A stretch of DNA of 39,553 nt from a virus (taxonomy: Duplodnaviria > Caudoviricetes), in the IMG/VR virus record IMGVR_UViG_3300048578_000200, positions 1 to 39,553 of that record; one strand, written 5' to 3'. Position 1 is the first letter of the stretch; each line of letters begins with the position of its first letter. This document shows, piece after piece, positions 1 through 30,489 of the stretch. A program made the position numbers and the translations under genes. The notes beneath the pieces are model-generated. The model did not search any database, was not told the DNA's origin, and was given only the letters and a program-made list of their open reading frames with translations.

Positions 1-823
1 GGTTGATCTGACCCTCGAAGAGGAAGCGGCGTACCTCCGTCTCTGCCATCAGATGTATCGCCGGCACGGTCCGATCCCGAACTCCGAACGCCTGCTGTGC
101 TCGTTGTGGCGATGCCATCAGAACAAGGCCCGCCCGCTTCTCCGGCGCCTCATCGACGCAGGCAAGATTCATCTGACACCCGACGGACATCTCACCAACA
201 CGCGGGTGACACACGAGCTAGACGATCGGGAGACGGTGTCGATACAGCGTGCACACGCCGGGCATATGGGAGGGGTACATAGCGGAGACGTTCGCCGTAA
301 CTCATTGAATGAAAACGGCACAGCCGAAGCAATTGCTTCAACCGATCGAAGCAGAGAAGAGGAGAGTAGAGAAGAGGAGAGTAGAGAAGAGGAGAAGAGA
401 GAAGAGGAGAAGAGAGAAGAGCAGGAGTCTTTCTCGCTTCGCTCGGAAGCTCCCTCCGACCCGCCGGCGGCGGCCCCGTCCAAGCCGAAGGCAAAACGCG
501 CTACCCGGCTGCCGGCTGACTGGAAGCCATCCGAGGCCGATTACGCGGCCGCGGAGGCGGAAGGCTTCACCCGGCAATACGCAGATCGCATCGCCAGCAA
601 TTTCCGAGATTACTGGCTCGCCCGATCAGGAGCGGGCGCAGCCAAGCTCGATTGGCCGGCCACCTGGAGAATCTGGGTGCGCCGGGAAGCCGCACGGCAA
701 CCTCCCTACCACGGAGCAAATCATGACGGACCAAGACCGCAACGCCGTAGTGCCACTGAAGGCTTCGATGCCCTCAGGGACGCAATCGATCGCGGATTCG
801 ATCTTCCGCCTCGACCAGTGTGA
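1..823 (+). CDS. Phage replication initiator, DUF1376/YdaU-like (5'-truncated by window)
   Basis: Frame is open from the window start (VDLTLEEEAAYLRLCHQMY, DUF1376-like). C-terminal RLPADWKP...FRDYW...KLDWPATWRIWVRR is typical of phage replication proteins. Internal tandem repeats. Confidence 0.75.
   Translation, partial: VDLTLEEEAAYLRLCHQMYRRHGPIPNSERLLCSLWRCHQNKARPLLRRLIDAGKIHLTPDGHLTNTRVTHELDDRETVSIQRAHAGHMGGVHSGDVRRNSLNENGTAEAIASTDRSREEESREEESREEEKREEEKREEQESFSLRSEAPSDPPAAAPSKPKAKRATRLPADWKPSEADYAAAEAEGFTRQYADRIASNFRDYWLARSGAGAAKLDWPATWRIWVRREAARQPPYHGANHDGPRPQRRSATEGFDALRDAIDRGFDLPPRPV
353..427 (+). repeat. Five 15-bp tandem repeats AGAGAAGAGGAGA(GT/AG) inside the initiator gene
   Basis: Units start at 353, 368, 383, 398 and 413 (last degenerate) and encode REEES/REEEK. 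A palindrome GAAGCAATTGCTTC lies at 326-339. Confidence 0.9.
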
Positions 824-5448: not shown

Positions 5449-7470
5449 TTAGAAATCCAAGGTCACCAGCACGGTGTTCACGCCAGTGCCGGATTCCTTG
5501 AATGTGTCGGGCGGCAGCTCTTCAATGACCCCGCCGTGATTTTCGACGAACCGCCGGAAATCGCAGGTTTCACGATCGCTGCGGAACGTCACGCCGGCGG
5601 ACATGACCGCCACCAGCCGGCCGCCCGGCTTAACGAACTTGGTGGCGTGCATGACGTGGCGGACGTCGTCGCCCTTGGCGAAAGGGGGATTCATCAGCAC
5701 CTTGTCGAAGAGTCCCAAGGTCGGCTGAAGCTCCAGGAAGTCAGCGCACATGACTGTGCCGGCAGATGGTTTTAGTCCGCCCGCCAGGGTCGGGTTGATC
5801 TCCACGGCGACGGTTTCGGCCGGTGGTGGCTCGCTGTGGTTGTGGCAGGCTCCGATCGCGGCGAGGATAGCGCCTGTCCCGGCTTCCGGCTCGAGCACGC
5901 GGTCGCCGGGCCGGATGTCGGCGATCTCGACCATGCGTTTGGCGAGTTCGGCCGGTGTCGGGAAGAGTTGGGGCACAGCCACCACCTTGACCCCGTTCTT
6001 GAGCGCGTCCCGCATGTCGTCGAAGGTGGTCCGCTGCGGCGCGGTGCGCACAGGGCGCGGCGTTTCCGGCGAGGGCGGGGGTGGCGGCAGATCGCAATCA
6101 GGCTTCTCCGGCTCCGGCTTCGGCGGGGCCACCCGCTTCATGTCGGTGATGAACACTCGCTGCTTCTGCCAGCAGTTGCCGGGGGCGGGCATCTGGCGGG
6201 CGCGGTGCTTGCCGACGGTCTCGGTCGCCGCGATCACCGCAACATAGGGGAAATCCGACCACTTGTTCCGACCGTTCCATTCGGCCTCGGTCATCTCGCG
6301 GAAGCCCTCGCCCGGGTAGTTGCAGAGCGGCGGCAGTGCGGTTGCTTTCTTGACCTTGGCGGCCTGCTCGGCCGTCGGCGGCCGATAGTCCTGGATCTGC
6401 TCGACACCGTATTTCCAGGTGCTCTGCCAGTGAACGATTTTCGGAGCGGTGGTGGTGACGCTGTTGACCGCGCCGTTCGACTTGTTGACCCGGAGGATGA
6501 CCAGCCAGCCGTCGCGGCCAACGAGCACCTGGCCGCCCGGCTTGAGATCGAAGCGGGACGCCATGGCGTTGTCGCCCGTCGTTCCGAGCTGTTCGTTGAG
6601 CATCGCGCGTTCATAGGCCAGCCGGTTGTCATAGTGAGCAATCCAGCGGGCTTTGTAGGCGATCGTGCGCGGGAAGACGGTCTTGGCGTACTCGACGATC
6701 TCGGCGATCGTCCGTGAGGCGTACAGGGTCGGATAGTCGCCTTGCACCGCGTCAAGAGCGGTCGGCCCATGGTCCCAGTCGACGTGGTCGCCTTCCTTCT
6801 TGGGCAGTGTCAGGTAGCACATGCCCGCGATCCGCAGCGCGACCTGCTTCTGCAATTCAAGGTCCGTCTCGTTGCCGCACTCGGTCCAATAGTGAAGCCA
6901 CATCTCGGACTCCTGCTTCACCTTGTCGGCCTTGCGGCGGTCGGATTCGAGCGTCTTGATCCGCCGGTGGCGGACGGCGGGGAGCTCCTTGTATTTGGCG
7001 GCGCTGATCGCGCCGGCGGCGCGGCCGGTCCAATAGCCGGCCTGCTCCCACATCTTCACGGCCTTGCGCATGCCGTTCTCGATGCGCTCGGCGTCCTTGC
7101 GGGCGCGTTTCTCGGAGTGGTGTCCGACCAGGATGGGCTGTCCCATGGGGATATTGTCGGCGATCGCGTCGACCGCGTTGCGAGCGCTTTCGGCGTCGGC
7201 CTTGCGGTGTTCGCTGTAGCTCTCGAACCGTTCGGCGCGTTCCTCGGCACGCTCGACGAGGCTCTTGTCTTCATCCTCGATCTCGCCAGCGAGTTCAGTC
7301 AGAAGATCAGCGCGGCCCGGCGCCCAGACGGCATAGAAGAGTTGCTGTTTCGGTGCCCAGGAAAACCCAGCCGCCTTCACGCGGGCATAGGTCTCGGCAT
7401 CGAGGCGGGAGAAAGCGTAAAGCCGGAGCTTGTCGTCGTCGGGTGAGTAGGTGGCGGTGTAGCTGGCCAT
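5449..7470 (-). CDS. DUF3560 domain fused to an amino-methyltransferase (probable N6-adenine DNA MTase)
   Basis: IPMGQPILVGHHSEKRARKD (DUF3560 signature); QLFPTP; VLEPEAGTGAI (motif I); VLMNPPF (motif IV); FKESGTGVNT. Confidence 0.85.
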   Translation of the reverse strand: MASYTATYSPDDDKLRLYAFSRLDAETYARVKAAGFSWAPKQQLFYAVWAPGRADLLTELAGEIEDEDKSLVERAEERAERFESYSEHRKADAESARNAVDAIADNIPMGQPILVGHHSEKRARKDAERIENGMRKAVKMWEQAGYWTGRAAGAISAAKYKELPAVRHRRIKTLESDRRKADKVKQESEMWLHYWTECGNETDLELQKQVALRIAGMCYLTLPKKEGDHVDWDHGPTALDAVQGDYPTLYASRTIAEIVEYAKTVFPRTIAYKARWIAHYDNRLAYERAMLNEQLGTTGDNAMASRFDLKPGGQVLVGRDGWLVILRVNKSNGAVNSVTTTAPKIVHWQSTWKYGVEQIQDYRPPTAEQAAKVKKATALPPLCNYPGEGFREMTEAEWNGRNKWSDFPYVAVIAATETVGKHRARQMPAPGNCWQKQRVFITDMKRVAPPKPEPEKPDCDLPPPPPSPETPRPVRTAPQRTTFDDMRDALKNGVKVVAVPQLFPTPAELAKRMVEIADIRPGDRVLEPEAGTGAILAAIGACHNHSEPPPAETVAVEINPTLAGGLKPSAGTVMCADFLELQPTLGLFDKVLMNPPFAKGDDVRHVMHATKFVKPGGRLVAVMSAGVTFRSDRETCDFRRFVENHGGVIEELPPDTFKESGTGVNTVLVTLDF

Positions 7471-7472
7471 GG

Positions 7473-7844
7473 TCATGCCTCCACCGCGAGGGATCGGCAT
7501 CCGACCACGCCGAGCTGGGATTCAAGGAAGTTGAGCACCTCAATGGCGACTGGCTCGCTGCTTCCATAGCAATCGTCAGCGATATCGGTGGCGATGTCCT
7601 CGGTGACGTCGCGCGACCAGCACTCGTGAGCGTTGAAAGCGACGATGCGGTCGATGCCCTCGACCTCGCGGCTCTTGATTGCTGCGATCAGAGCGTCCTT
7701 GGTTTCGTAGACGTCCTGTCCGGCGAGGTTCCGGCCTTGGAGCCGATAGCTCCAGTAAGCGACGTAGTGGGTGACGTCGGGCGTGTTCGGATTGAGTAGA
7801 ATAGGGGTGGTGGTGGCCAGTGTGCCACGATGAAGCACTGTCAT
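7473..7844 (-). CDS. Hypothetical protein
   Basis: ATG 7 nt after the exact 14-mer at 7852-7865. Confidence 0.7.
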   Translation of the reverse strand: MTVLHRGTLATTTPILLNPNTPDVTHYVAYWSYRLQGRNLAGQDVYETKDALIAAIKSREVEGIDRIVAFNAHECWSRDVTEDIATDIADDCYGSSEPVAIEVLNFLESQLGVVGCRSLAVEA

Positions 7845-7960: not shown

Positions 7961-8611
7961 TTACTCTGCCGCAGTAAATCTCCTGTGCAGTACATTTCCG
8001 GAAATACTCATCTTCGCGTCACCGCTCCGGATCAGGGCTTGATCGATATTCTCGGGGTCCTGTCCGACGACGGTCCAGACGACGCCTTGCGGGTCGGCTG
8101 ACTCGGCACCGATGAAGGGTGCGACGTCGAGCGGCTCGAGGGGAGGCGGAGGAAGCCGGCGGAACACGCGCGGCAGTTTTGGATGTGCCCAGCCATGGCC
8201 CTCTTTCTCGAAGCCCAGTTCTGGCACGGCCAGTCCGAGCTGCTCTTCGAGCCATGCCGATACGAATCCGCGGTGGCAGAAATCGCCGGGTTTGACAGGG
8301 CTTTCGTAACAGACGAGCACCGGCACGCGGTCGCCGGCGAGCGCCATGATTTCCTCGACCACTTTTCCCGCGTCCAGCTCATTGAGTTGGGCGAGGTAGC
8401 GCGATCGATACTCTTCGACGGATACGCTGTTGAACCACGTCCCCGGCGCAAGCTTGCGGAAGATCCGATAGCCGGCCGGCTGGCCGCGTGGGACGCCGCG
8501 ACTGATGCCGATTTTGATGTGGGTGGAGGTGTAATGGCCGAACCACCAGCCGGTCAGGATGGTGGCATTGCAAGCCTCTGGGCGGTCTAGATCGAGTTCG
8601 CGTTGCATCAT
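7961..8611 (-). CDS. DUF488-like protein
   Basis: GISRGVP...KLAPG...VLVCYE...FCHR pattern of the DUF488 family. Confidence 0.7.
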   Translation of the reverse strand: MMQRELDLDRPEACNATILTGWWFGHYTSTHIKIGISRGVPRGQPAGYRIFRKLAPGTWFNSVSVEEYRSRYLAQLNELDAGKVVEEIMALAGDRVPVLVCYESPVKPGDFCHRGFVSAWLEEQLGLAVPELGFEKEGHGWAHPKLPRVFRRLPPPPLEPLDVAPFIGAESADPQGVVWTVVGQDPENIDQALIRSGDAKMSISGNVLHRRFTAAE

Positions 8612-9637: not shown

Positions 9638-11023
9638 ATGCAGTTCCGAAATGTATTCGGCTCGATGCCGACCGATTTAATTCGGTCTATTCTTCGCATT
9701 GCCGAGCCTCAGAAGTGGCCGGAAGTCTTCGTTGTGTGCTCGGAGTCGTTTCGCCTGGAGCGGTGCCTTTTGGCGCTCCACCCTGGTGTGGCGGTGCACT
9801 CGAATGACGTCTCGCTGTTGTCGACGGCGGTCGCCAAGTATGCGCTCGGCGAGGAGCTGGACTTTCACTTCAAGGACGAGCTCTCGTTTCTTGAAGATGT
9901 GGGGCTTGCCGACTATGGCGAGCGCGTCGCGGCCGTGATCGTCGCGGCCACGATGGGCACCTATGCCTCCGGCCGTCCGAACCCGACCAAGGCTGCGCAC
10001 CTGGCTCACTACCGGCGCAATTTTTTGGAGTACGTGCGGGCGACGCGTGGCAAGCTCGACAGCGTGCGCGAGGAGCTGCCGATCGCGTCCTACTATGCGG
10101 GCGACTGGCTCGACCATATGGAGGAGGCGATTCGCCGCGGCGCCGGTGTGATCGGCTATCCGCCGACCGCCAAGAGCAACCCGGCCAACTCGTTTGCCTT
10201 CGTCCACGCCAATGTGGACTGGCAGGCGCCGCACTTCCGGATCTTCGATCCAAAGGACATTCCGCAGGTGCTCAACCGGCTTGATTCCGGCGGAGTGCCG
10301 TATCTGCTCTGCGCCGAGCGGGGAATCGACGGCCGGCAACCGGTCATTGAGTCCAACCCCAAGGGCAAGGCGACCATATATGGATATTCGAGCGGGACGC
10401 GCTCCGGCTATCTGGACGCATCGACCGGCTTCGAGCCGTTCGCCTACGAGCCTCTCGATCTGACGAGGCTTACAGAGAACTCGGTGTGCCGAATCATTCC
10501 GTCGAGCACGTACCGGCTCAACTTCCTGCGACATGTCTACCTGAAAAAGTCCATCGCATTCGCCCAGGGCGACGCGCACCTTCTCGTCTATCTCGACGAC
10601 ATGCTCGCCGGCGGCATCGTGTACCGCCTGGGTCGTGAGGCATTTTCGCCGGTGGAACTGCTTTCGGATTTCGCGACCACGCGACAAGGCCGTGTTGCCA
10701 AACTGATTGCGCGGCTGGCGACGACGCGCGCGGCGGTCTCCGTCATAGAGCGTCGATTCGTCGACCGTTACCAACGTCTGACGACGCAAGCGTTCTCCGA
10801 TCACCCGGTGGCGATGAAATACCGGGGATCATGGGAGGTGACTAAACGAGTCGAGGACGATCGCCAGGGGGCAAAGTACGTCCTGACTTACGAATCCGAG
10901 GTGAGGGATGAAGACCCACAAAGAACCTACGCACACTGGTGGAAGCGAGACGGCGCCCGGCAAGTGGCCGAAGCTCGAAACCGAAATCAGGAAGGTCGAT
11001 CCGCGGACGCTGGTGCGGCGTGA
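9638..11023 (+). CDS. Putative DNA-modification protein: degenerate adenine-MTase-like N-terminus plus Mom/GNAT-like C-terminus
   Basis: FGSMP, VVCSESFRLER, HSNDV and GYPPT, then LRHVYLKK, LLSDFA and AFSDHPVAMKYRG. Resembles the phage putative antirestriction adenine methyltransferase family found beside ParB-like genes. Confidence 0.6.
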   Translation: MQFRNVFGSMPTDLIRSILRIAEPQKWPEVFVVCSESFRLERCLLALHPGVAVHSNDVSLLSTAVAKYALGEELDFHFKDELSFLEDVGLADYGERVAAVIVAATMGTYASGRPNPTKAAHLAHYRRNFLEYVRATRGKLDSVREELPIASYYAGDWLDHMEEAIRRGAGVIGYPPTAKSNPANSFAFVHANVDWQAPHFRIFDPKDIPQVLNRLDSGGVPYLLCAERGIDGRQPVIESNPKGKATIYGYSSGTRSGYLDASTGFEPFAYEPLDLTRLTENSVCRIIPSSTYRLNFLRHVYLKKSIAFAQGDAHLLVYLDDMLAGGIVYRLGREAFSPVELLSDFATTRQGRVAKLIARLATTRAAVSVIERRFVDRYQRLTTQAFSDHPVAMKYRGSWEVTKRVEDDRQGAKYVLTYESEVRDEDPQRTYAHWWKRDGARQVAEARNRNQEGRSADAGAA

Positions 11024-11696
11024 GGTTAACGCCCGGTTCATGGAACCGGATCAGTTCGCGCGCCTCGTCGACAATTTCTCGACCGACGGGAAGATGACCG
11101 GCACGGTCACGACTTGCTGGCTCACAGACGGAAGCGACGGCAAGCTGGAAATTCTTTCCGGTCATCACCGCACAGAGGCAGCCATCGCAGCCGGCTTCAC
11201 GGAAATCGAGGTGGTCCATATCACGACGGTGCTTGACGAAGAGCGCAAGACGGCGATCCAGCTCTCGCACAACTCGATCTCCGGCACCGACAATCCTTCG
11301 ATCCTGGCCAAAATGTACGAGTCTCTCGACCTCGACGCCAAGAAGTTCTCCGGCCTGACCGACGACATTCTCAGCGACCTGGACAAAATCCAGGTGTCGG
11401 CGCTTGCAGCCGCGAACGTCAACTACGAGCAGCTCGCCATCATGTTCCTGCCCGAAGACCTGGAGGCCTTCGACAAGCGGGTCGAAGATTTTTCGGCGCG
11501 GAAGAACAAAGCGGCGGAGGTGTGGGCAGCTCGTCACGCGGATTTTGACCGGATCTTTGACGCGGTGGTGCGCGTGAAACACAAGCTCCAGATCGTCAAC
11601 TCTGCTCTGGCGTTGGTCACGATGGCGGAGCTGGCGCACGAGCGTCTGGATGAGATCGAGCACGAGGCCGAGTTGCCGCTTCAAGAGGCCGCCTGA
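10908..11696 (+). CDS. ParB/Srx N-terminal domain protein
   Basis: NARFM...LVDNF...LEILSGHHRTEAA...QLSHNSISG; overlaps the upstream gene. Confidence 0.8.
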   Translation: MKTHKEPTHTGGSETAPGKWPKLETEIRKVDPRTLVRREVNARFMEPDQFARLVDNFSTDGKMTGTVTTCWLTDGSDGKLEILSGHHRTEAAIAAGFTEIEVVHITTVLDEERKTAIQLSHNSISGTDNPSILAKMYESLDLDAKKFSGLTDDILSDLDKIQVSALAAANVNYEQLAIMFLPEDLEAFDKRVEDFSARKNKAAEVWAARHADFDRIFDAVVRVKHKLQIVNSALALVTMAELAHERLDEIEHEAELPLQEAA

Positions 11697-27316: not shown

Positions 27317-28999
27317 ATGATCCGCCCGAGCAATGTCGATCTCAACCGTCTCGCGATGCAGCCGACCACTCTGACGCCGGCCGGACGCTCCGCTGCCATC
27401 ATTGCAGCGGGCGGCGATCCATCGGTGCCGAGCCTCGCCTACGTGACGGCTTTGCCAGAGTGGAAACTGATCCGCGACATTCTCGGCGGTGCGCGCGTGA
27501 TCCGCAGCAGGAAGACGCTGTATCTCCCCAAGTACACCAACGAGCCGCAACCCGATTACGACATGCGTGTCCGTTACGCGCCGTTCGTCAACCACTTCCG
27601 GGACAACCTCAACACCATCGTCTCGAAGCCGTTCTCCAAGGAAGTGGTGTTGCAGGGTAATGTCTCTCCGGATCTCCGGGAGATTGCCGAGGACATCGAT
27701 GGCCACGGGACCGGGCAGCACAAGTTCGCACGCGACATCTTCAAGGAAGGCGTCGCCTTCGGCGTTGTCGGCCTCTACGTCGATTTTCCCAACATGAAGG
27801 GCGCCGAGACGCTCGCAGACGAACGGCGCCTGGGCCCGCGGCCGTACTGGTGCATGTACAAGACCGAGGACATCTTGGCGCTGTTCACCGAGATGCGCAG
27901 TGGTCGAAAGTATGTGACGCACGTTCGCTTGGCGGAGAACATCATTCGCCGCGTCGGCTTCTCGGAGCAGTTGGTGCGTCGCGTGCGCATTCTCGATGAT
28001 GATGGGCAGAACCGCACCTGGGCACTCTACGAAGAGACCGGGGCCGGGTGGGTCGCAGTCGGGCAGGGCGAATTGACCTTGCCGGAAATCCCGTTCCGGC
28101 TGTTCAAGCCAGGCGACAGGGAGTGGATCACGAACGCGACCGTGTCGCCGCTCGTCGATCTCGCCCACCTCCAGATCGAACACTACCAGCAATCATCGAA
28201 TCTGAAACACGTCCTCAACCTGACCGGGTTCCCGATGCTGGCCGGCAATGGCGTCTCGCCGCCGATGGACAAGGAGGGAAAGCCGATTCGGCTGCGCATC
28301 GGCCCGAACGTGGTTTGCTTTGCTCCGCCGCAGATGGGCACCTCCGGATATCCGGAGTGGAAGTTCATCGAGCCGACCGGCAATTCGATGGAGCGGCTCC
28401 AGGTCCAGATCGAGCACATCGAAGACCAGATGTCGAAGCTCGGCATGGCACCTCTCGTGCGCAACAGCGGCGGCGTGACGGCGACCGCGTACGCTGTGAA
28501 TGCCGCCAAGGCGCATGCGGCCGCGGAGGCCTGGGCCTCCGATCTCAAGGACGTGCTCGAGGAATGCTGGGAGTTCACCGCGCTCTGGATGGGCAAGCCG
28601 GCCGGTTCTGGCGCCGAGGTCTACATCCACACCGACTTCGGTATCGACCTGCGCGAATCCAAGGAGAACGCGGAGCTGCTCGATGCCGAGAAGGAGGAGG
28701 TGATCTCGACCGAGACCCTCTGGGACGAATGGCAGCGCCGCGGCTTCCTCGGCCCGCAATTCAATCCGGATGTGGAGAAGAAGCGACTCGAAGCGCAGAG
28801 GGCGGCCGACATCAAACGCCAGCAGCAGATGATGAAGCTCGGTCTCATGGCGAATCCGAATGCAGCGCCGGGCGGCGCCGGCAAACAGAATGGTCCGGCC
28901 GCAGGGAAGAAGAAGGGCAAAAGCTCTGGTAGCGGTGAAGCCGTAATGTACGCGCAAGACGAAGGTCAGGAGATGACGGACACCGAAGCGGCCGCCTGA
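27317..28999 (+). CDS. Portal protein (DUF4055-like)
   Basis: Directly after terL; DILGG...YLPKY...DIDGHG...RPYW...PLVDLAHLQIEHYQQSS. Confidence 0.88.
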   Translation: MIRPSNVDLNRLAMQPTTLTPAGRSAAIIAAGGDPSVPSLAYVTALPEWKLIRDILGGARVIRSRKTLYLPKYTNEPQPDYDMRVRYAPFVNHFRDNLNTIVSKPFSKEVVLQGNVSPDLREIAEDIDGHGTGQHKFARDIFKEGVAFGVVGLYVDFPNMKGAETLADERRLGPRPYWCMYKTEDILALFTEMRSGRKYVTHVRLAENIIRRVGFSEQLVRRVRILDDDGQNRTWALYEETGAGWVAVGQGELTLPEIPFRLFKPGDREWITNATVSPLVDLAHLQIEHYQQSSNLKHVLNLTGFPMLAGNGVSPPMDKEGKPIRLRIGPNVVCFAPPQMGTSGYPEWKFIEPTGNSMERLQVQIEHIEDQMSKLGMAPLVRNSGGVTATAYAVNAAKAHAAAEAWASDLKDVLEECWEFTALWMGKPAGSGAEVYIHTDFGIDLRESKENAELLDAEKEEVISTETLWDEWQRRGFLGPQFNPDVEKKRLEAQRAADIKRQQQMMKLGLMANPNAAPGGAGKQNGPAAGKKKGKSSGSGEAVMYAQDEGQEMTDTEAAA

Positions 29000-29009
29000 A
29001 AAAAAGGTG

Positions 29010-29038
29010 TTGCGCCGTGGACGGACTAGACGTACTTC
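29010..29038 (+). promoter_or_regulatory. Possible promoter for the RNA cluster
   Basis: A-tract followed by TTGCGC-17-TACTTC. Confidence 0.4.
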
Positions 29039-29179
29039 TTTGGCATGGTCGGGCGATTCCGTGAAGGCGGGGTCGCCCGTATGCGTTTCGAGCGCGACAA
29101 TCGATAAGAAACAGGCGCTTCAAGAAGAAGAAGGCAGTGGCGCAATGCGCTAACACCCAACGGACTCGCACGACGCGAG

Positions 29180-29490
29180 GATGGTGCTGAACCTCACTCT
29201 TGAGGCTCGTCGGACCCGGGGGCAGTGCCCGGCGCCTCCACCACGGACACAGTAACCAGCTCGCTTGCGCGCCGGTGTATTCACGCGGCTTGCGGATGCT
29301 CCTGCTGTGTCTCTGATGGGGGCGACACAGGATCGACGCCGAGAGGACGAAGCGAGCTGTACCCGGCCTGCCGCCGTCATCGGCAAGACCAACCAAATGC
29401 CAACGACAACGTCGGCATGATTGAAATGCGCCTCGCGGCGTAAGCAATCGGGGGTCACCCGCGCCCTGGCAACAGAAGCGGGCCTTCTTT
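29180..29490 (+). ncRNA. ssrA: Circularly permuted two-piece tmRNA (outer ends approximate)
   Basis: Acceptor piece ends GGACCCGGGGGCAGTGCCCGGCGCCTCCACCA at 29243. Coding piece starts GGGGGCGACACAGGATCGAC at 29318. 7-bp acceptor stem with G3:U70. Tag ANDNVGMIEMRLAA* at 29399-29443. Confidence 0.93.
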
Positions 29491-29504
29491 CAGGAGACCG
29501 GACC

Positions 29505-29726
29505 ATGCGCGTGTCGATTGATTTCGACCCGGCCATCGATTCGTTTGCGACGATCTCGGCGGTCGTGTCCGCCGCGTATCCGCAATTCGCCCTCGTGCCG
29601 GGTGTCGCCGGAGAGTTGAAGGCCTTCGAGCCTCAGACCTCCGCCGAGTCCGTCGCCGATGCGCCCCAGGCGGATCAGCCGGCCGAAGCCTTGCCGACCG
29701 ACACCTCTCTGAGGCGACGTCGCTGA
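29505..29726 (+). CDS. Hypothetical protein
   Basis: AGGAG RBS. Confidence 0.6.
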   Translation: MRVSIDFDPAIDSFATISAVVSAAYPQFALVPGVAGELKAFEPQTSAESVADAPQADQPAEALPTDTSLRRRR

Positions 29727-29733
29727 CCAGTTT

Positions 29734-29805
29734 GCGGAGATAGGTTCATAGCAGACCGCCCGGCTCCAACCGGGAAGTGCCGCCTCACAACGGCTCTCCG
29801 CTCCA
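29734..29805 (+). tRNA. Aberrant tRNA-Gly-like RNA
   Basis: GCGGAGA/TCTCCGC acceptor, U73, CCA; D-arm GGTT/GACC; anticodon arm CCCGG-CTCCAA-CCGGG (6-nt loop); T-arm GCCG/CGGC without TTC. Confidence 0.7.
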
Positions 29806-29931
29806 TTTTCCTCAGAACCGGCGCGAGCCCCCATCCCGGGGCAGACCGCAGCGATCCTCGACGTGAACGGCCTCGAGCTCCTTCGAGCCGGTGCGGACGG
29901 GAACCTGCCCGACGCCGGCGGGCACCTTTGA

Positions 29932-30008
29932 CGCGGGATAGCGCAGTCCGGTAGCGCGGCTGGTTCATACCCAGCAGGTCGTCGGTTCAAATCCGACTCC
30001 CGCAACCA
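29932..30008 (+). tRNA. tRNA-Met(CAT), initiator-like
   Basis: Full cloverleaf, C1:A72 mismatch, anticodon CAT, GGTTCAAATCC T-arm, encoded CCA. Confidence 0.95.
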
Positions 30009-30062
30009 ATTTTCCGCCATGGCGGCCCGGCGGCAATCAAGCGGCTGCAAGGAGCATCATTT

Positions 30063-30233
30063 ATGGCCAAGTATCCCGTGAAGGGCACGGACGAAGTCCG
30101 CGAAGCGACCGAGAACGATGTGATCCTCAGCGACGAGATCATCGGCACCGATCCGGACCCGAATGTTCGCGCAACGCTGCTTCATGAAGCCCAGGCCGGC
30201 GGCGCCGGAGCGGGCGGCGGCGGCGGCGACTGA
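30063..30233 (+). CDS. 56-aa acidic protein with Gly-rich tail
   Basis: AAGGAG RBS; MAKYPVKGTDEVRE...GGAGAGGGGGD. Confidence 0.6.
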   Translation: MAKYPVKGTDEVREATENDVILSDEIIGTDPDPNVRATLLHEAQAGGAGAGGGGGD

Positions 30234-30318
30234 TCCTTCTCTGACAAGAATACCCAGCGCGAGCGGGGCGTCGTCGTGGTCATCCATGGCGGCGTCCCCA
30301 AGTCTTTTGAGAGGTCGA

Positions 30319-30489
30319 ATGGTCACCCTGGTCGTGATGGTCTTTTTCGGAACGTCCGATCCGGTGATTTCGGCGCGTTCGCTTGACAGCCTCGATGCCT
30401 GCTGGCGCGAGGCGCGCGCAGAGATCCAAAAGACCCGGCCTGGCGCGACGTCAGTCGGCGCCGGCTGCAAGGTCAATCTTCCGCGGTGA
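30319..30489 (+). CDS. Small hypothetical protein
   Basis: GAGG RBS; hydrophobic N-terminus and two Cys. Confidence 0.5.
   Translation: MVTLVVMVFFGTSDPVISARSLDSLDACWREARAEIQKTRPGATSVGAGCKVNLPR

What the first reader, a model, noticed from the sequence alone, without database searches (positions are those of the whole stretch)
29734..29805. tRNA-Gly-like RNA with intact stems but non-canonical loops
Seen: all four stems pair, with a Gly-type acceptor (G1-C72, C2-G71, G3-C70, U73) and encoded CCA. The anticodon loop is only 6 nt (CTCCAA), the D-loop lacks GG and the T-loop lacks TTC. Stems intact while every loop is altered argues against random decay. Established: staphylococcal non-proteinogenic tRNA-Gly also lose GG/TTC and donate glycine outside the ribosome. 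Inference: an aminoacyl donor for a transferase, a decoy for anticodon nucleases, or a processing signal.
Basis: partly seen in the sequence, partly recalled or inferred. Interest (0 to 1): 0.7.

Follow-up and report, generated by a model that had tools for sequence, protein, structure and literature searches.

The report
Phage private glycine-carrier tRNA
This soil phage carries a glycine tRNA look-alike that keeps the marks for being loaded with glycine but has all three loops rebuilt, and because such RNAs travel with predicted DNA-modifying enzymes across many phages, it likely serves as a private glycine carrier for chemically disguising the phage's own DNA rather than for making protein.

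Summary
29734-29805 is a 72-nt cloverleaf with the bacterial glycine identity set, a 6-nt anticodon loop, no GG and no TTC; its T-stem has only 4 pairs. An independent low-depth contig has the same length, so it is not an assembly indel. The closest portal relatives carry an equally rebuilt orthologue with different, paired stems.

In IMG/VR, 38 of 48 records with short Gly-acceptor tRNAs encode Mom, Dam-GNAT (PF22559) or DruA-like proteins, against 0 of 48 with canonical tRNA-Gly. The window encodes a Dam-GNAT (9638-11023). Its two nearest relatives in the tree have odd tRNA-Gly beside the gene. Its GNAT domain ranks Mu Mom first among 48,161 folds, tied with other GNATs. Mom transfers glycine from Gly-tRNA-Gly to DNA adenine.

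Best reading (0.65): a host-charged, non-decoding glycine donor for phage DNA hypermodification. Charging, expression and the enzyme's chemistry are untested, the enzyme lies 18.7 kb away, and one relative lacks it. I found no paper describing the pairing; this scan's earlier AI notes proposed it on other DNA.

The parts
29734..29805 (+). tRNA-Gly-like RNA gene, 72 nt: Gly acceptor, U73, CCA, 6-nt anticodon loop with CC, GG-less D-loop, TTC-less T-loop, 4-bp T-stem
   Evidence: orthologues L058, L059, L001, L004; no indel in X1 contig
9638..11023 (+). Dam-like (PF22555) + GNAT (PF22559) fusion, 461 aa; candidate Gly-tRNA-dependent DNA adenine modifier
   Evidence: Pfam; model pLDDT 89; N-domain Dam fold Z 14.4; GNAT domain alone, pLDDT 94.5, best match Mom 8bv8_B Z 11.1, rmsd 3.1, 139 aligned, tied with 1y9k Z 11.0
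10908..11696 (+). ParB-like gene overlapping the Dam-GNAT 3' end; in L090 the odd tRNA-Gly follows this gene by 5 nt
   Evidence: PHROGs
7961..8611 (-). DUF488-N3a-like gene; a weak match to the same family lies upstream of the tRNA-likes and Dam-GNAT in L209
   Evidence: L209 match E 0.012, below cut-off
27317..28999 (+). portal protein; marks the locus after which the family keeps its RNA genes
   Evidence: phrog_145
29151..29534 (+). permuted alphaproteobacterial-type tmRNA, same RNA cluster
   Evidence: ARAGORN; Rfam RF01849 108 bits
29810..29925 (+). unexplained element after the tRNA-like gene, sharing two short motifs with the region after tRNA-Gly in L001
   Evidence: not more stable than shuffles
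29932..30008 (+). canonical tRNA-Met(CAU) with C1.A72 mismatch (initiator type)

Best explanation
This is a phage-encoded tRNA-Gly look-alike that the host's glycyl-tRNA synthetase would likely load but the ribosome likely cannot use, and that likely hands glycine to the phage's Dam-like/GNAT enzyme (9638-11023), which is predicted to place it on adenine in phage DNA as Mu Mom does, likely to evade host restriction. Shown: the gene, its fold, its retained glycine identity elements, its conservation in relatives, and its co-occurrence with Mom, Dam-GNAT and DruA-like genes. Inferred: transcription with the late genes and RNase P/3' processing; charging; exclusion from decoding (6-nt loop, loss of A14, G18, G53-C61 and the T-loop consensus); that PF22559 uses Gly-tRNA; that the product is N6-carbamoylmethyl-adenine or similar. 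The RNA looks accessory, not obligatory: it would spare or bypass the EF-Tu-bound host Gly-tRNA pool late in infection.
For: (1) Bacterial Gly identity (U73, G1-C72, C2-G71, C35, C36; PMC9976931 passage) is kept while all loops are altered.
(2) L058/L059 (portal 69-70% identical) carry after the portal a 74-nt form with D-loop AAUAGCA, 6-nt loop GCUCCA, T-loop GGCAGAA and other paired stems; L004 has a canonical tRNA-Gly(UCC) with the same acceptor stem. Over 8 aligned relatives 13 of 21 pairs change on both sides.
(3) 38 of 48 records with 71-73-nt Gly-acceptor tRNAs encode Mom (14), PF22559 (3) or DruA-like (21, 16 over cut-off) proteins, without overlap, against 0 of 48 canonical controls. 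By tRNA cluster at 85% it is 14 of 21.
(4) CC lies at positions 32-37 in 21 of 21 cluster representatives although the pattern left that region free (shuffle mean 5.4, maximum 12 in 2000).
(5) Reverse test: 16 clear and 1 doubtful degenerate Gly tRNAs in 50 Dam-GNAT records (2 were in the model), against 0 clear and 1 doubtful in 50 distant-portal records (Fisher 15/48 vs 1/50, p 6.5e-5). Some lie 19-77 nt upstream of the gene.
(6) The window enzyme's starred clade holds L090 and L091, both with an odd tRNA-Gly beside the gene, L090's also with a 6-nt loop.
(7) The GNAT domain ranks Mom first of 48,161 chains. Mom uses Gly-tRNA-Gly and is thought to read the acceptor end (PMC13219725, sections 10 and 14).
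Against: No expression, charging or enzyme data.
- In this genome RNA and enzyme are 18.7 kb apart.
- G001 (L001, 87% complete, portal 61%) has a mildly odd tRNA-Gly (C33, G38) but no PF22559, PF25680 or PF14236 match, and a ParB-methyltransferase at the matching position; G005 (90% complete) has a degenerate form and none of the three.
- 10 of the 48 odd-tRNA records have no such enzyme. Only 3 of 10 Dam-GNAT records at least 90% complete show an odd tRNA. Three close Mom homologues lack the tRNA upstream (L409-L411).
- Kinship of PF22559 to Mom is weak by sequence (no PF25680 hit; hhalign E 0.018 and 0.0046, probability under 8%), and the fold match is tied with ordinary acetyltransferases.
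- Mu Mom works with all three E. coli isoacceptors (PMC13219725, section 10), so no private donor is required.
- Controls are not matched for phage type, records include near-copies, and the control tRNAs fall in 2 clusters at 85% (37 distinct).
- The window form is among the most altered, so it may have decayed past function.
Confidence: 0.65

Rival explanations
1. A decaying or relaxed tRNA-Gly(UCC) pseudogene: once canonical (as in L004), now drifting, with stems not yet broken.
For: A canonical orthologue exists (L004); the window copy has lost A14, G53-C61 and one T-arm base; L001 looks intermediate and has no enzyme.
Against: All changes fall in loops or keep pairing (D-stem 11-24 pair is G-C here, C-G or U-A elsewhere); L058/L059 show the same defects on other stems; CC is kept in 21 of 21; strong link to enzymes.
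Confidence: 0.1
2. A decoy that soaks up host defence enzymes aimed at tRNA-Gly: Gly-tRNA-acetylating GNAT toxins such as TacT, or anticodon nucleases.
For: TacT reads U73 and G71 (PMC9976931 passage), both kept here; the RNA sits with tmRNA and tRNA-fMet, a translation-rescue cluster.
Against: It does not explain why such RNAs abut Mom and Dam-GNAT genes; a rebuilt anticodon loop is a poor lure for an anticodon nuclease (inference).
Confidence: 0.1
3. A cis-acting or regulatory tRNA mimic: an RNase P/RNase E punctuation mark in the late transcript, or a ligand that titrates the GNAT enzyme without being a donor.
For: It lies between tmRNA and tRNA-fMet on one strand; in many Mom loci the tRNA-like gene overlaps the mom start codon, in frame, which suggests control in cis.
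Against: A punctuation mark needs no Gly-specific acceptor, U73 or CC; here the element is not in frame with any ORF and is far from the enzyme gene; in Dam-GNAT loci it is free-standing, in L209 in two tandem copies.
Confidence: 0.1
4. A ribosomal frameshifting or doublet-reading tRNA-Gly (6-nt loop) for a programmed shift in a late gene.
For: 6-nt anticodon loops recur (window, L058/L059, L090).
Against: Loop sizes in the class run from about 4 to 7 nt and middle bases vary; the elbow nucleotides are lost; no target site was sought or seen.
Confidence: 0.04

Closest known systems
Non-proteogenic tRNA-Gly NP1-NP3 of Staphylococcus aureus / tRNA-Gly Ia, Ib of S. epidermidis (FmhB/FemAB donors; PMC7826273, sections 3 and 21 part 1 read)
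   Same: Gly acceptor kept, T-loop TTC lost, anticodon loop altered; the logic of a separate Gly-tRNA pool for a GNAT-fold transferase.
   Different: Phage-encoded; the loop is shortened by deletion; T-stem 4 bp; the three T-stem pairs read as G-C, C-G, C-G, not the weak A-U, U-A, A-U set; the candidate acceptor is DNA, not lipid II; no Fem-type gene was seen among the 69 window ORFs scanned.
Phage Mu Mom (PF25680; PDB 8bv8; PMC13219725, abstract and sections 10, 13, 14 read)
   Same: GNAT fold; best structural match of the window's GNAT domain (Z 11.1, tied); true Mom homologues with R111, D149 and Y159 invariant sit directly on odd tRNA-Gly genes.
   Different: Mu uses host tRNA-Gly; the sections read mention no phage tRNA. 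The window's protein is not PF25680, is fused to a Dam-like domain, and Mom's catalytic residues could not be mapped on it.
Pfam DAM-like-phage1 (PF22555) + GNAT-phage-like (PF22559) with a ParB-like neighbour
   Same: The window protein is a full member (153 and 130 bits, cut-off 27).
   Different: The family has a fold-based name only; I found no tested function, and the link to tRNA-Gly is not in its description.
Canonical phage tRNA-Gly(UCC) (RF00005), such as L004
   Same: Same locus and same acceptor stem.
   Different: All three loops are rebuilt; not detected by RF00005 or ARAGORN.

Membership tests
Canonical tRNA (RF00005) | Cloverleaf with four stems and CCA end | tested here: met
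   (T-stem 4 bp)
Canonical tRNA (RF00005) | 7-nt anticodon loop with U33, D-loop G18G19, T-loop T54-psi55-C56, G53-C61 | tested here: not met
   no RF00005 or ARAGORN call
Bacterial tRNA-Gly identity | U73, G1-C72, C2-G71, CC in the anticodon loop | tested here: met
   sequence against PMC9976931 passage; register of CC in a 6-nt loop is uncertain
Bacterial tRNA-Gly identity | Charged with glycine by GlyRS | not testable with these tools
   needs an aminoacylation assay
Staphylococcal non-proteogenic tRNA-Gly | T-loop TTC replaced (TGC/TGT) | tested here: inconclusive
   TTC is absent, but the loop is CCUCACAA, not TGC/TGT (PMC7826273 section 3)
Staphylococcal non-proteogenic tRNA-Gly | Weak EF-Tu pairs A49-U65, U50-A64, A51-U63 | tested here: not met
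   window reads G-C, C-G, C-G (PMC7826273 section 21)
Staphylococcal non-proteogenic tRNA-Gly | No EF-Tu or ribosome binding; preferred by a transferase | not testable with these tools
   needs biochemistry
Mom family (for 9638-11023) | Match to PF25680 / phrog_1384 | tested here: not met
Mom family (for 9638-11023) | GNAT fold closest to Mom | tested here: inconclusive
   GNAT fold clear; Mom rank 1, Z 11.1, rmsd 3.1, 139 aligned, tied with 1y9k 11.0 and 5ix3 10.2
Mom family (for 9638-11023) | Catalytic R111, S124, D149, R151 | tested here: inconclusive
   hhalign joined only 48 N-terminal columns; family invariants are D344, K355, M393-R396
Mom family (for 9638-11023) | Transfers Gly from Gly-tRNA to N6-dA | not testable with these tools
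   needs nucleoside LC-MS
Active Dam methyltransferase (N-domain) | Dam fold | tested here: met
   Z 13.9-14.4 to Dam-type structures, rmsd about 4, about 200 aligned
Active Dam methyltransferase (N-domain) | [DN]PP[YF] catalytic motif (motif recalled, from no call) | tested here: not met
   window 174-178 YPPTA; family mostly FPPTY
PF22555 + PF22559 | Both domains above cut-off, ParB-like neighbour | tested here: met

The most novel reading that the evidence does not exclude
Phages have repeatedly turned tRNA-Gly into a dedicated, ribosome-blind cofactor RNA for at least three GNAT-type DNA-modifying families (Mom, Dam-GNAT PF22559, DruA-like). The odd tRNA then marks undiscovered glycine-based DNA hypermodifications, and in Mom loci one stretch of RNA is both the donor and the start of the enzyme's own reading frame.
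Probability: 0.5. Interest if true: 0.85.

Novelty: new variant of a known kind. Interest (0 to 1): 0.72.

Why it matters
It would give a non-translational answer to why some phages carry tRNA genes, and show that tRNA-dependent DNA modification, shown only for Mu Mom with host tRNA, comes with its own donor RNA. It names glycyl-tRNA as the substrate to test for two uncharacterised families (PF22559 and phage DruA-like proteins), pointing to new restriction-evading bases. Standard tRNA finders miss most of these genes (RF00005 found 1 of the 16 clear cases in Dam-GNAT records). A chargeable RNA that the ribosome ignores would also be a useful tool.

Tried and rejected
- ARAGORN at a lowered threshold gave only noise and did not call the element (output partly cut).
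- blastn of the element against GenBank phages: no match. An exact 5' pattern in IMG/VR: 0.
- Portal searches of GTDB genomes found no relatives.
- No RNA holder was listed among sequencing runs; this says nothing on expression.
- Mu Mom against the window: no meaningful hit. The Dam-GNAT profile found no solved relative by sequence. Global hhalign to Mom gave nothing.
- A Mom-alignment locus search was not possible; a single Mom gave 4 loci, so the Mom-to-tRNA reverse test is thin.
- A cluster-level Fisher test against the control was uninformative because the control tRNAs collapse to 2 clusters (p 0.14).
- No sigma-70 promoter-like site in 28900-30400.
- Assembly deletion: rejected on one low-depth contig.
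- attP remnant: rejected by reasoning (whole cloverleaf, inside the head genes).
- Coding role: no ORF starts in the element in the frame used by Mom loci (sequence).
- The tree is the quick tree; the careful search did not finish.

Full report
Setting. The window is one viral contig, 62% complete by CheckV, of a tailed phage with terminase, portal, scaffold, capsid and baseplate genes. An alphaproteobacterial host is inferred from a permuted alpha-type tmRNA at 29151-29534. After the portal lie, on one strand, the tmRNA, a 73-codon ORF, the element, an unexplained 116-nt stretch and an initiator-type tRNA-Met.

Observation. The element is as described, except that the T-stem has four pairs. 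The cloverleaf is the predicted ground state (z -2.78, 3 of 200 shuffles). ARAGORN and Rfam miss it. One contig of run X1 spans it with no gap, and its two substitutions lie outside; this is a single contig at depth 2.7.

Relatives at the same locus. An alignment of 10 portal proteins gave 57 viral and 15 metagenome loci; seven have a portal above 55% identity. L004 has a canonical tRNA-Gly(UCC) with the window's acceptor stem; L001 has one with C33 and G38; L002 a canonical tRNA-Gly(GCC); L003 and L060 (short) none. L058 and L059, the closest (69-70%, one tRNA sequence), have D-loop AAUAGCA, a 6-nt loop GCUCCA and T-loop GGCAGAA on different, fully paired stems. Across 8 aligned relatives 13 of 21 pairs change on both sides; that alignment was fitted to the model, and its anticodon stem is only 60% paired because short loops shift the register. 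The element is therefore a tRNA-Gly(UCC) derivative whose defects recur in a relative.

The partner. A scan for C33-UCC Gly tRNAs gave 14 loci, six of them cloverleaf-like; in L084 the tRNA runs into a Mom gene. Mu Mom transfers glycine from Gly-tRNA-Gly to adenine N6 in dsDNA, accepts all three E. coli isoacceptors, rejects Gly-tRNA-Ala, and is thought to read the acceptor end (PMC13219725; abstract, passages and sections 10, 13, 14 read, supplements not). The window has no PF25680 gene but encodes a Dam-like/GNAT fusion at 9638-11023. Its N-domain has the Dam fold without the recalled DPPY-type motif. Its GNAT domain, folded alone, ranks Mom first of 48,161 chains (Z 11.1, rmsd 3.1, 139 aligned), tied with 1y9k at 11.0. 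Profile comparison with a 13-sequence Mom alignment is weak.

Forward test. A pattern fixing only the Gly acceptor, part of the D-stem and a length of 71-73 nt gave 56 IMG/VR loci. I dropped 8 as poor cloverleafs (none had a Mom or Dam-GNAT hit in its flanks there). Of the 48 left, whole records held Mom in 14, PF22559 in 3 and DruA-like PF14236 in 21, 16 over the cut-off: 38 of 48, no overlap. The first 48 of 120 loci with a canonical tRNA-Gly(UCC) gave 0 of 48 for each family. The odd tRNAs form 21 clusters at 85%, 14 with an enzyme, and all 21 representatives keep CC at positions 32-37 (shuffle mean 5.4). That DruA-like proteins are GNAT-type DNA modifiers is recalled, not tested here. The DruA group is mostly T4-like phages, and the control is not matched for phage type.

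Reverse test. Of 395 Dam-GNAT loci the best 80 were returned and 50 records searched. RF00005 matched 11. A model built from 34 sequences, including the window and two of these records, matched 21; reading them gave 16 clear degenerate Gly tRNAs, 1 doubtful, 1 canonical and 3 other tRNAs. Fifty distant-portal records gave 0 clear and 1 doubtful (p 6.5e-5 without the training records). Several lie 19-42 nt upstream of the gene, and L209 has two in tandem 77 nt upstream. Ten of 19 enzyme clusters at 60% identity hold at least one (counting the window and L209/L218), and the window's enzyme groups (96% SH-aLRT, quick tree) with L090 and L091, both with the RNA beside the gene. L090's RNA has a 6-nt loop and follows the ParB-like gene by 5 nt.

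Against. Only 3 of 10 near-complete Dam-GNAT records show the RNA. G001 and G005 have an odd tRNA but none of the three families; G001 has a ParB-methyltransferase in the matching slot (30 of its 85 candidate genes were scanned singly). Three Mom homologues lack the tRNA upstream. In this genome RNA and enzyme are 18.7 kb apart. The weak EF-Tu pair set of the staphylococcal NP tRNAs is absent (PMC7826273, sections 3 and 21 part 1 read), so exclusion from translation would have to rest on the short loop and the lost elbow. Nothing was shown on expression or charging.

Mechanism. Most likely (0.65) the RNA is made with the late genes, trimmed, and charged by host GlyRS through U73, the first acceptor pairs and CC (identity set from a PMC9976931 passage). 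It is ignored by the ribosome and used by the Dam-GNAT, whose Dam-like domain would present adenine and whose GNAT domain would transfer glycine. All of these steps are inferred. Rivals are decay (0.10), defence decoy (0.10), cis or regulatory mimic (0.10) and frameshifting tRNA (0.04).

Novelty. It works like staphylococcal non-proteogenic tRNA-Gly but fails that family's T-stem test, and its partner resembles Mom without being a PF25680 member. Eight paper searches (listings seen, three papers read in part) showed no report of phage non-decoding tRNA-Gly paired with DNA-modifying GNATs. The library lacks most subscription papers, and the Mom paper's supplements were not seen. Earlier AI notes of this scan, consulted after I had formed this reading, propose the same pairing on other genomes; they are not independent support. 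Verdict: new variant of a known kind, interest 0.72.

Noticed in passing
L206, L211, L213, L227, L234, L237, L238, L240, L242, L250, L258, L260, L084 (tRNA-like gene and Mom ORF): The tRNA-Gly-like gene overlaps the 5' end of the mom ORF in frame: the start codon lies in or near the D-loop, the T-arm and acceptor encode an N-terminal GGSxP..PL[QH] peptide, and the Mom-aligned region starts right after CCA. One transcript could give either donor RNA or enzyme.
   Followed up: partly
window 29810-29925 and L001 10500-10612: Both follow tRNA-Gly and share GGGCAGA and ACGTGAACGGC motifs; found in no other record fetched; no Rfam match; weak joint fold. Possibly an unknown small RNA.
   Followed up: partly
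window 29151-29534; L004 5150-5566; L003 4944-5606: The family carries its own permuted alpha-type tmRNA after the portal; in L003 the intervening segment is about 400 nt longer and looks like an inserted ORF.
   Followed up: no
L205, L207, L208, L215-L217, L221, L225, L233, L235, L246-L248, L253, L255, L257: T4-like phages with a heat-shock-like gene, a GG-less tRNA-Gly (several with T-loop UGC, C32-G38, some with ACC anticodon), mostly a peroxiredoxin-like gene, then a DruA-like ORF (the first two gene names are read by eye).
   Followed up: partly
G011, G014, G016, G019, G031, G033, G034, G048, G058, G059 (loci L383-L399): Gly tRNA-likes in Dam-GNAT phages are shrunk to 63-69 nt with a reduced D-arm, yet end in CCGCUCCA.
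   Followed up: partly
L172 373-1755 (G001): A ParB-methyltransferase fusion occupies the slot that holds Dam-GNAT in the window, suggesting swappable DNA-modification cassettes.
   Followed up: partly
window 5449-7500 (-): DUF3560 protein with a C-terminal methyltransferase-like domain near the Dam-GNAT cassette.
   Followed up: no
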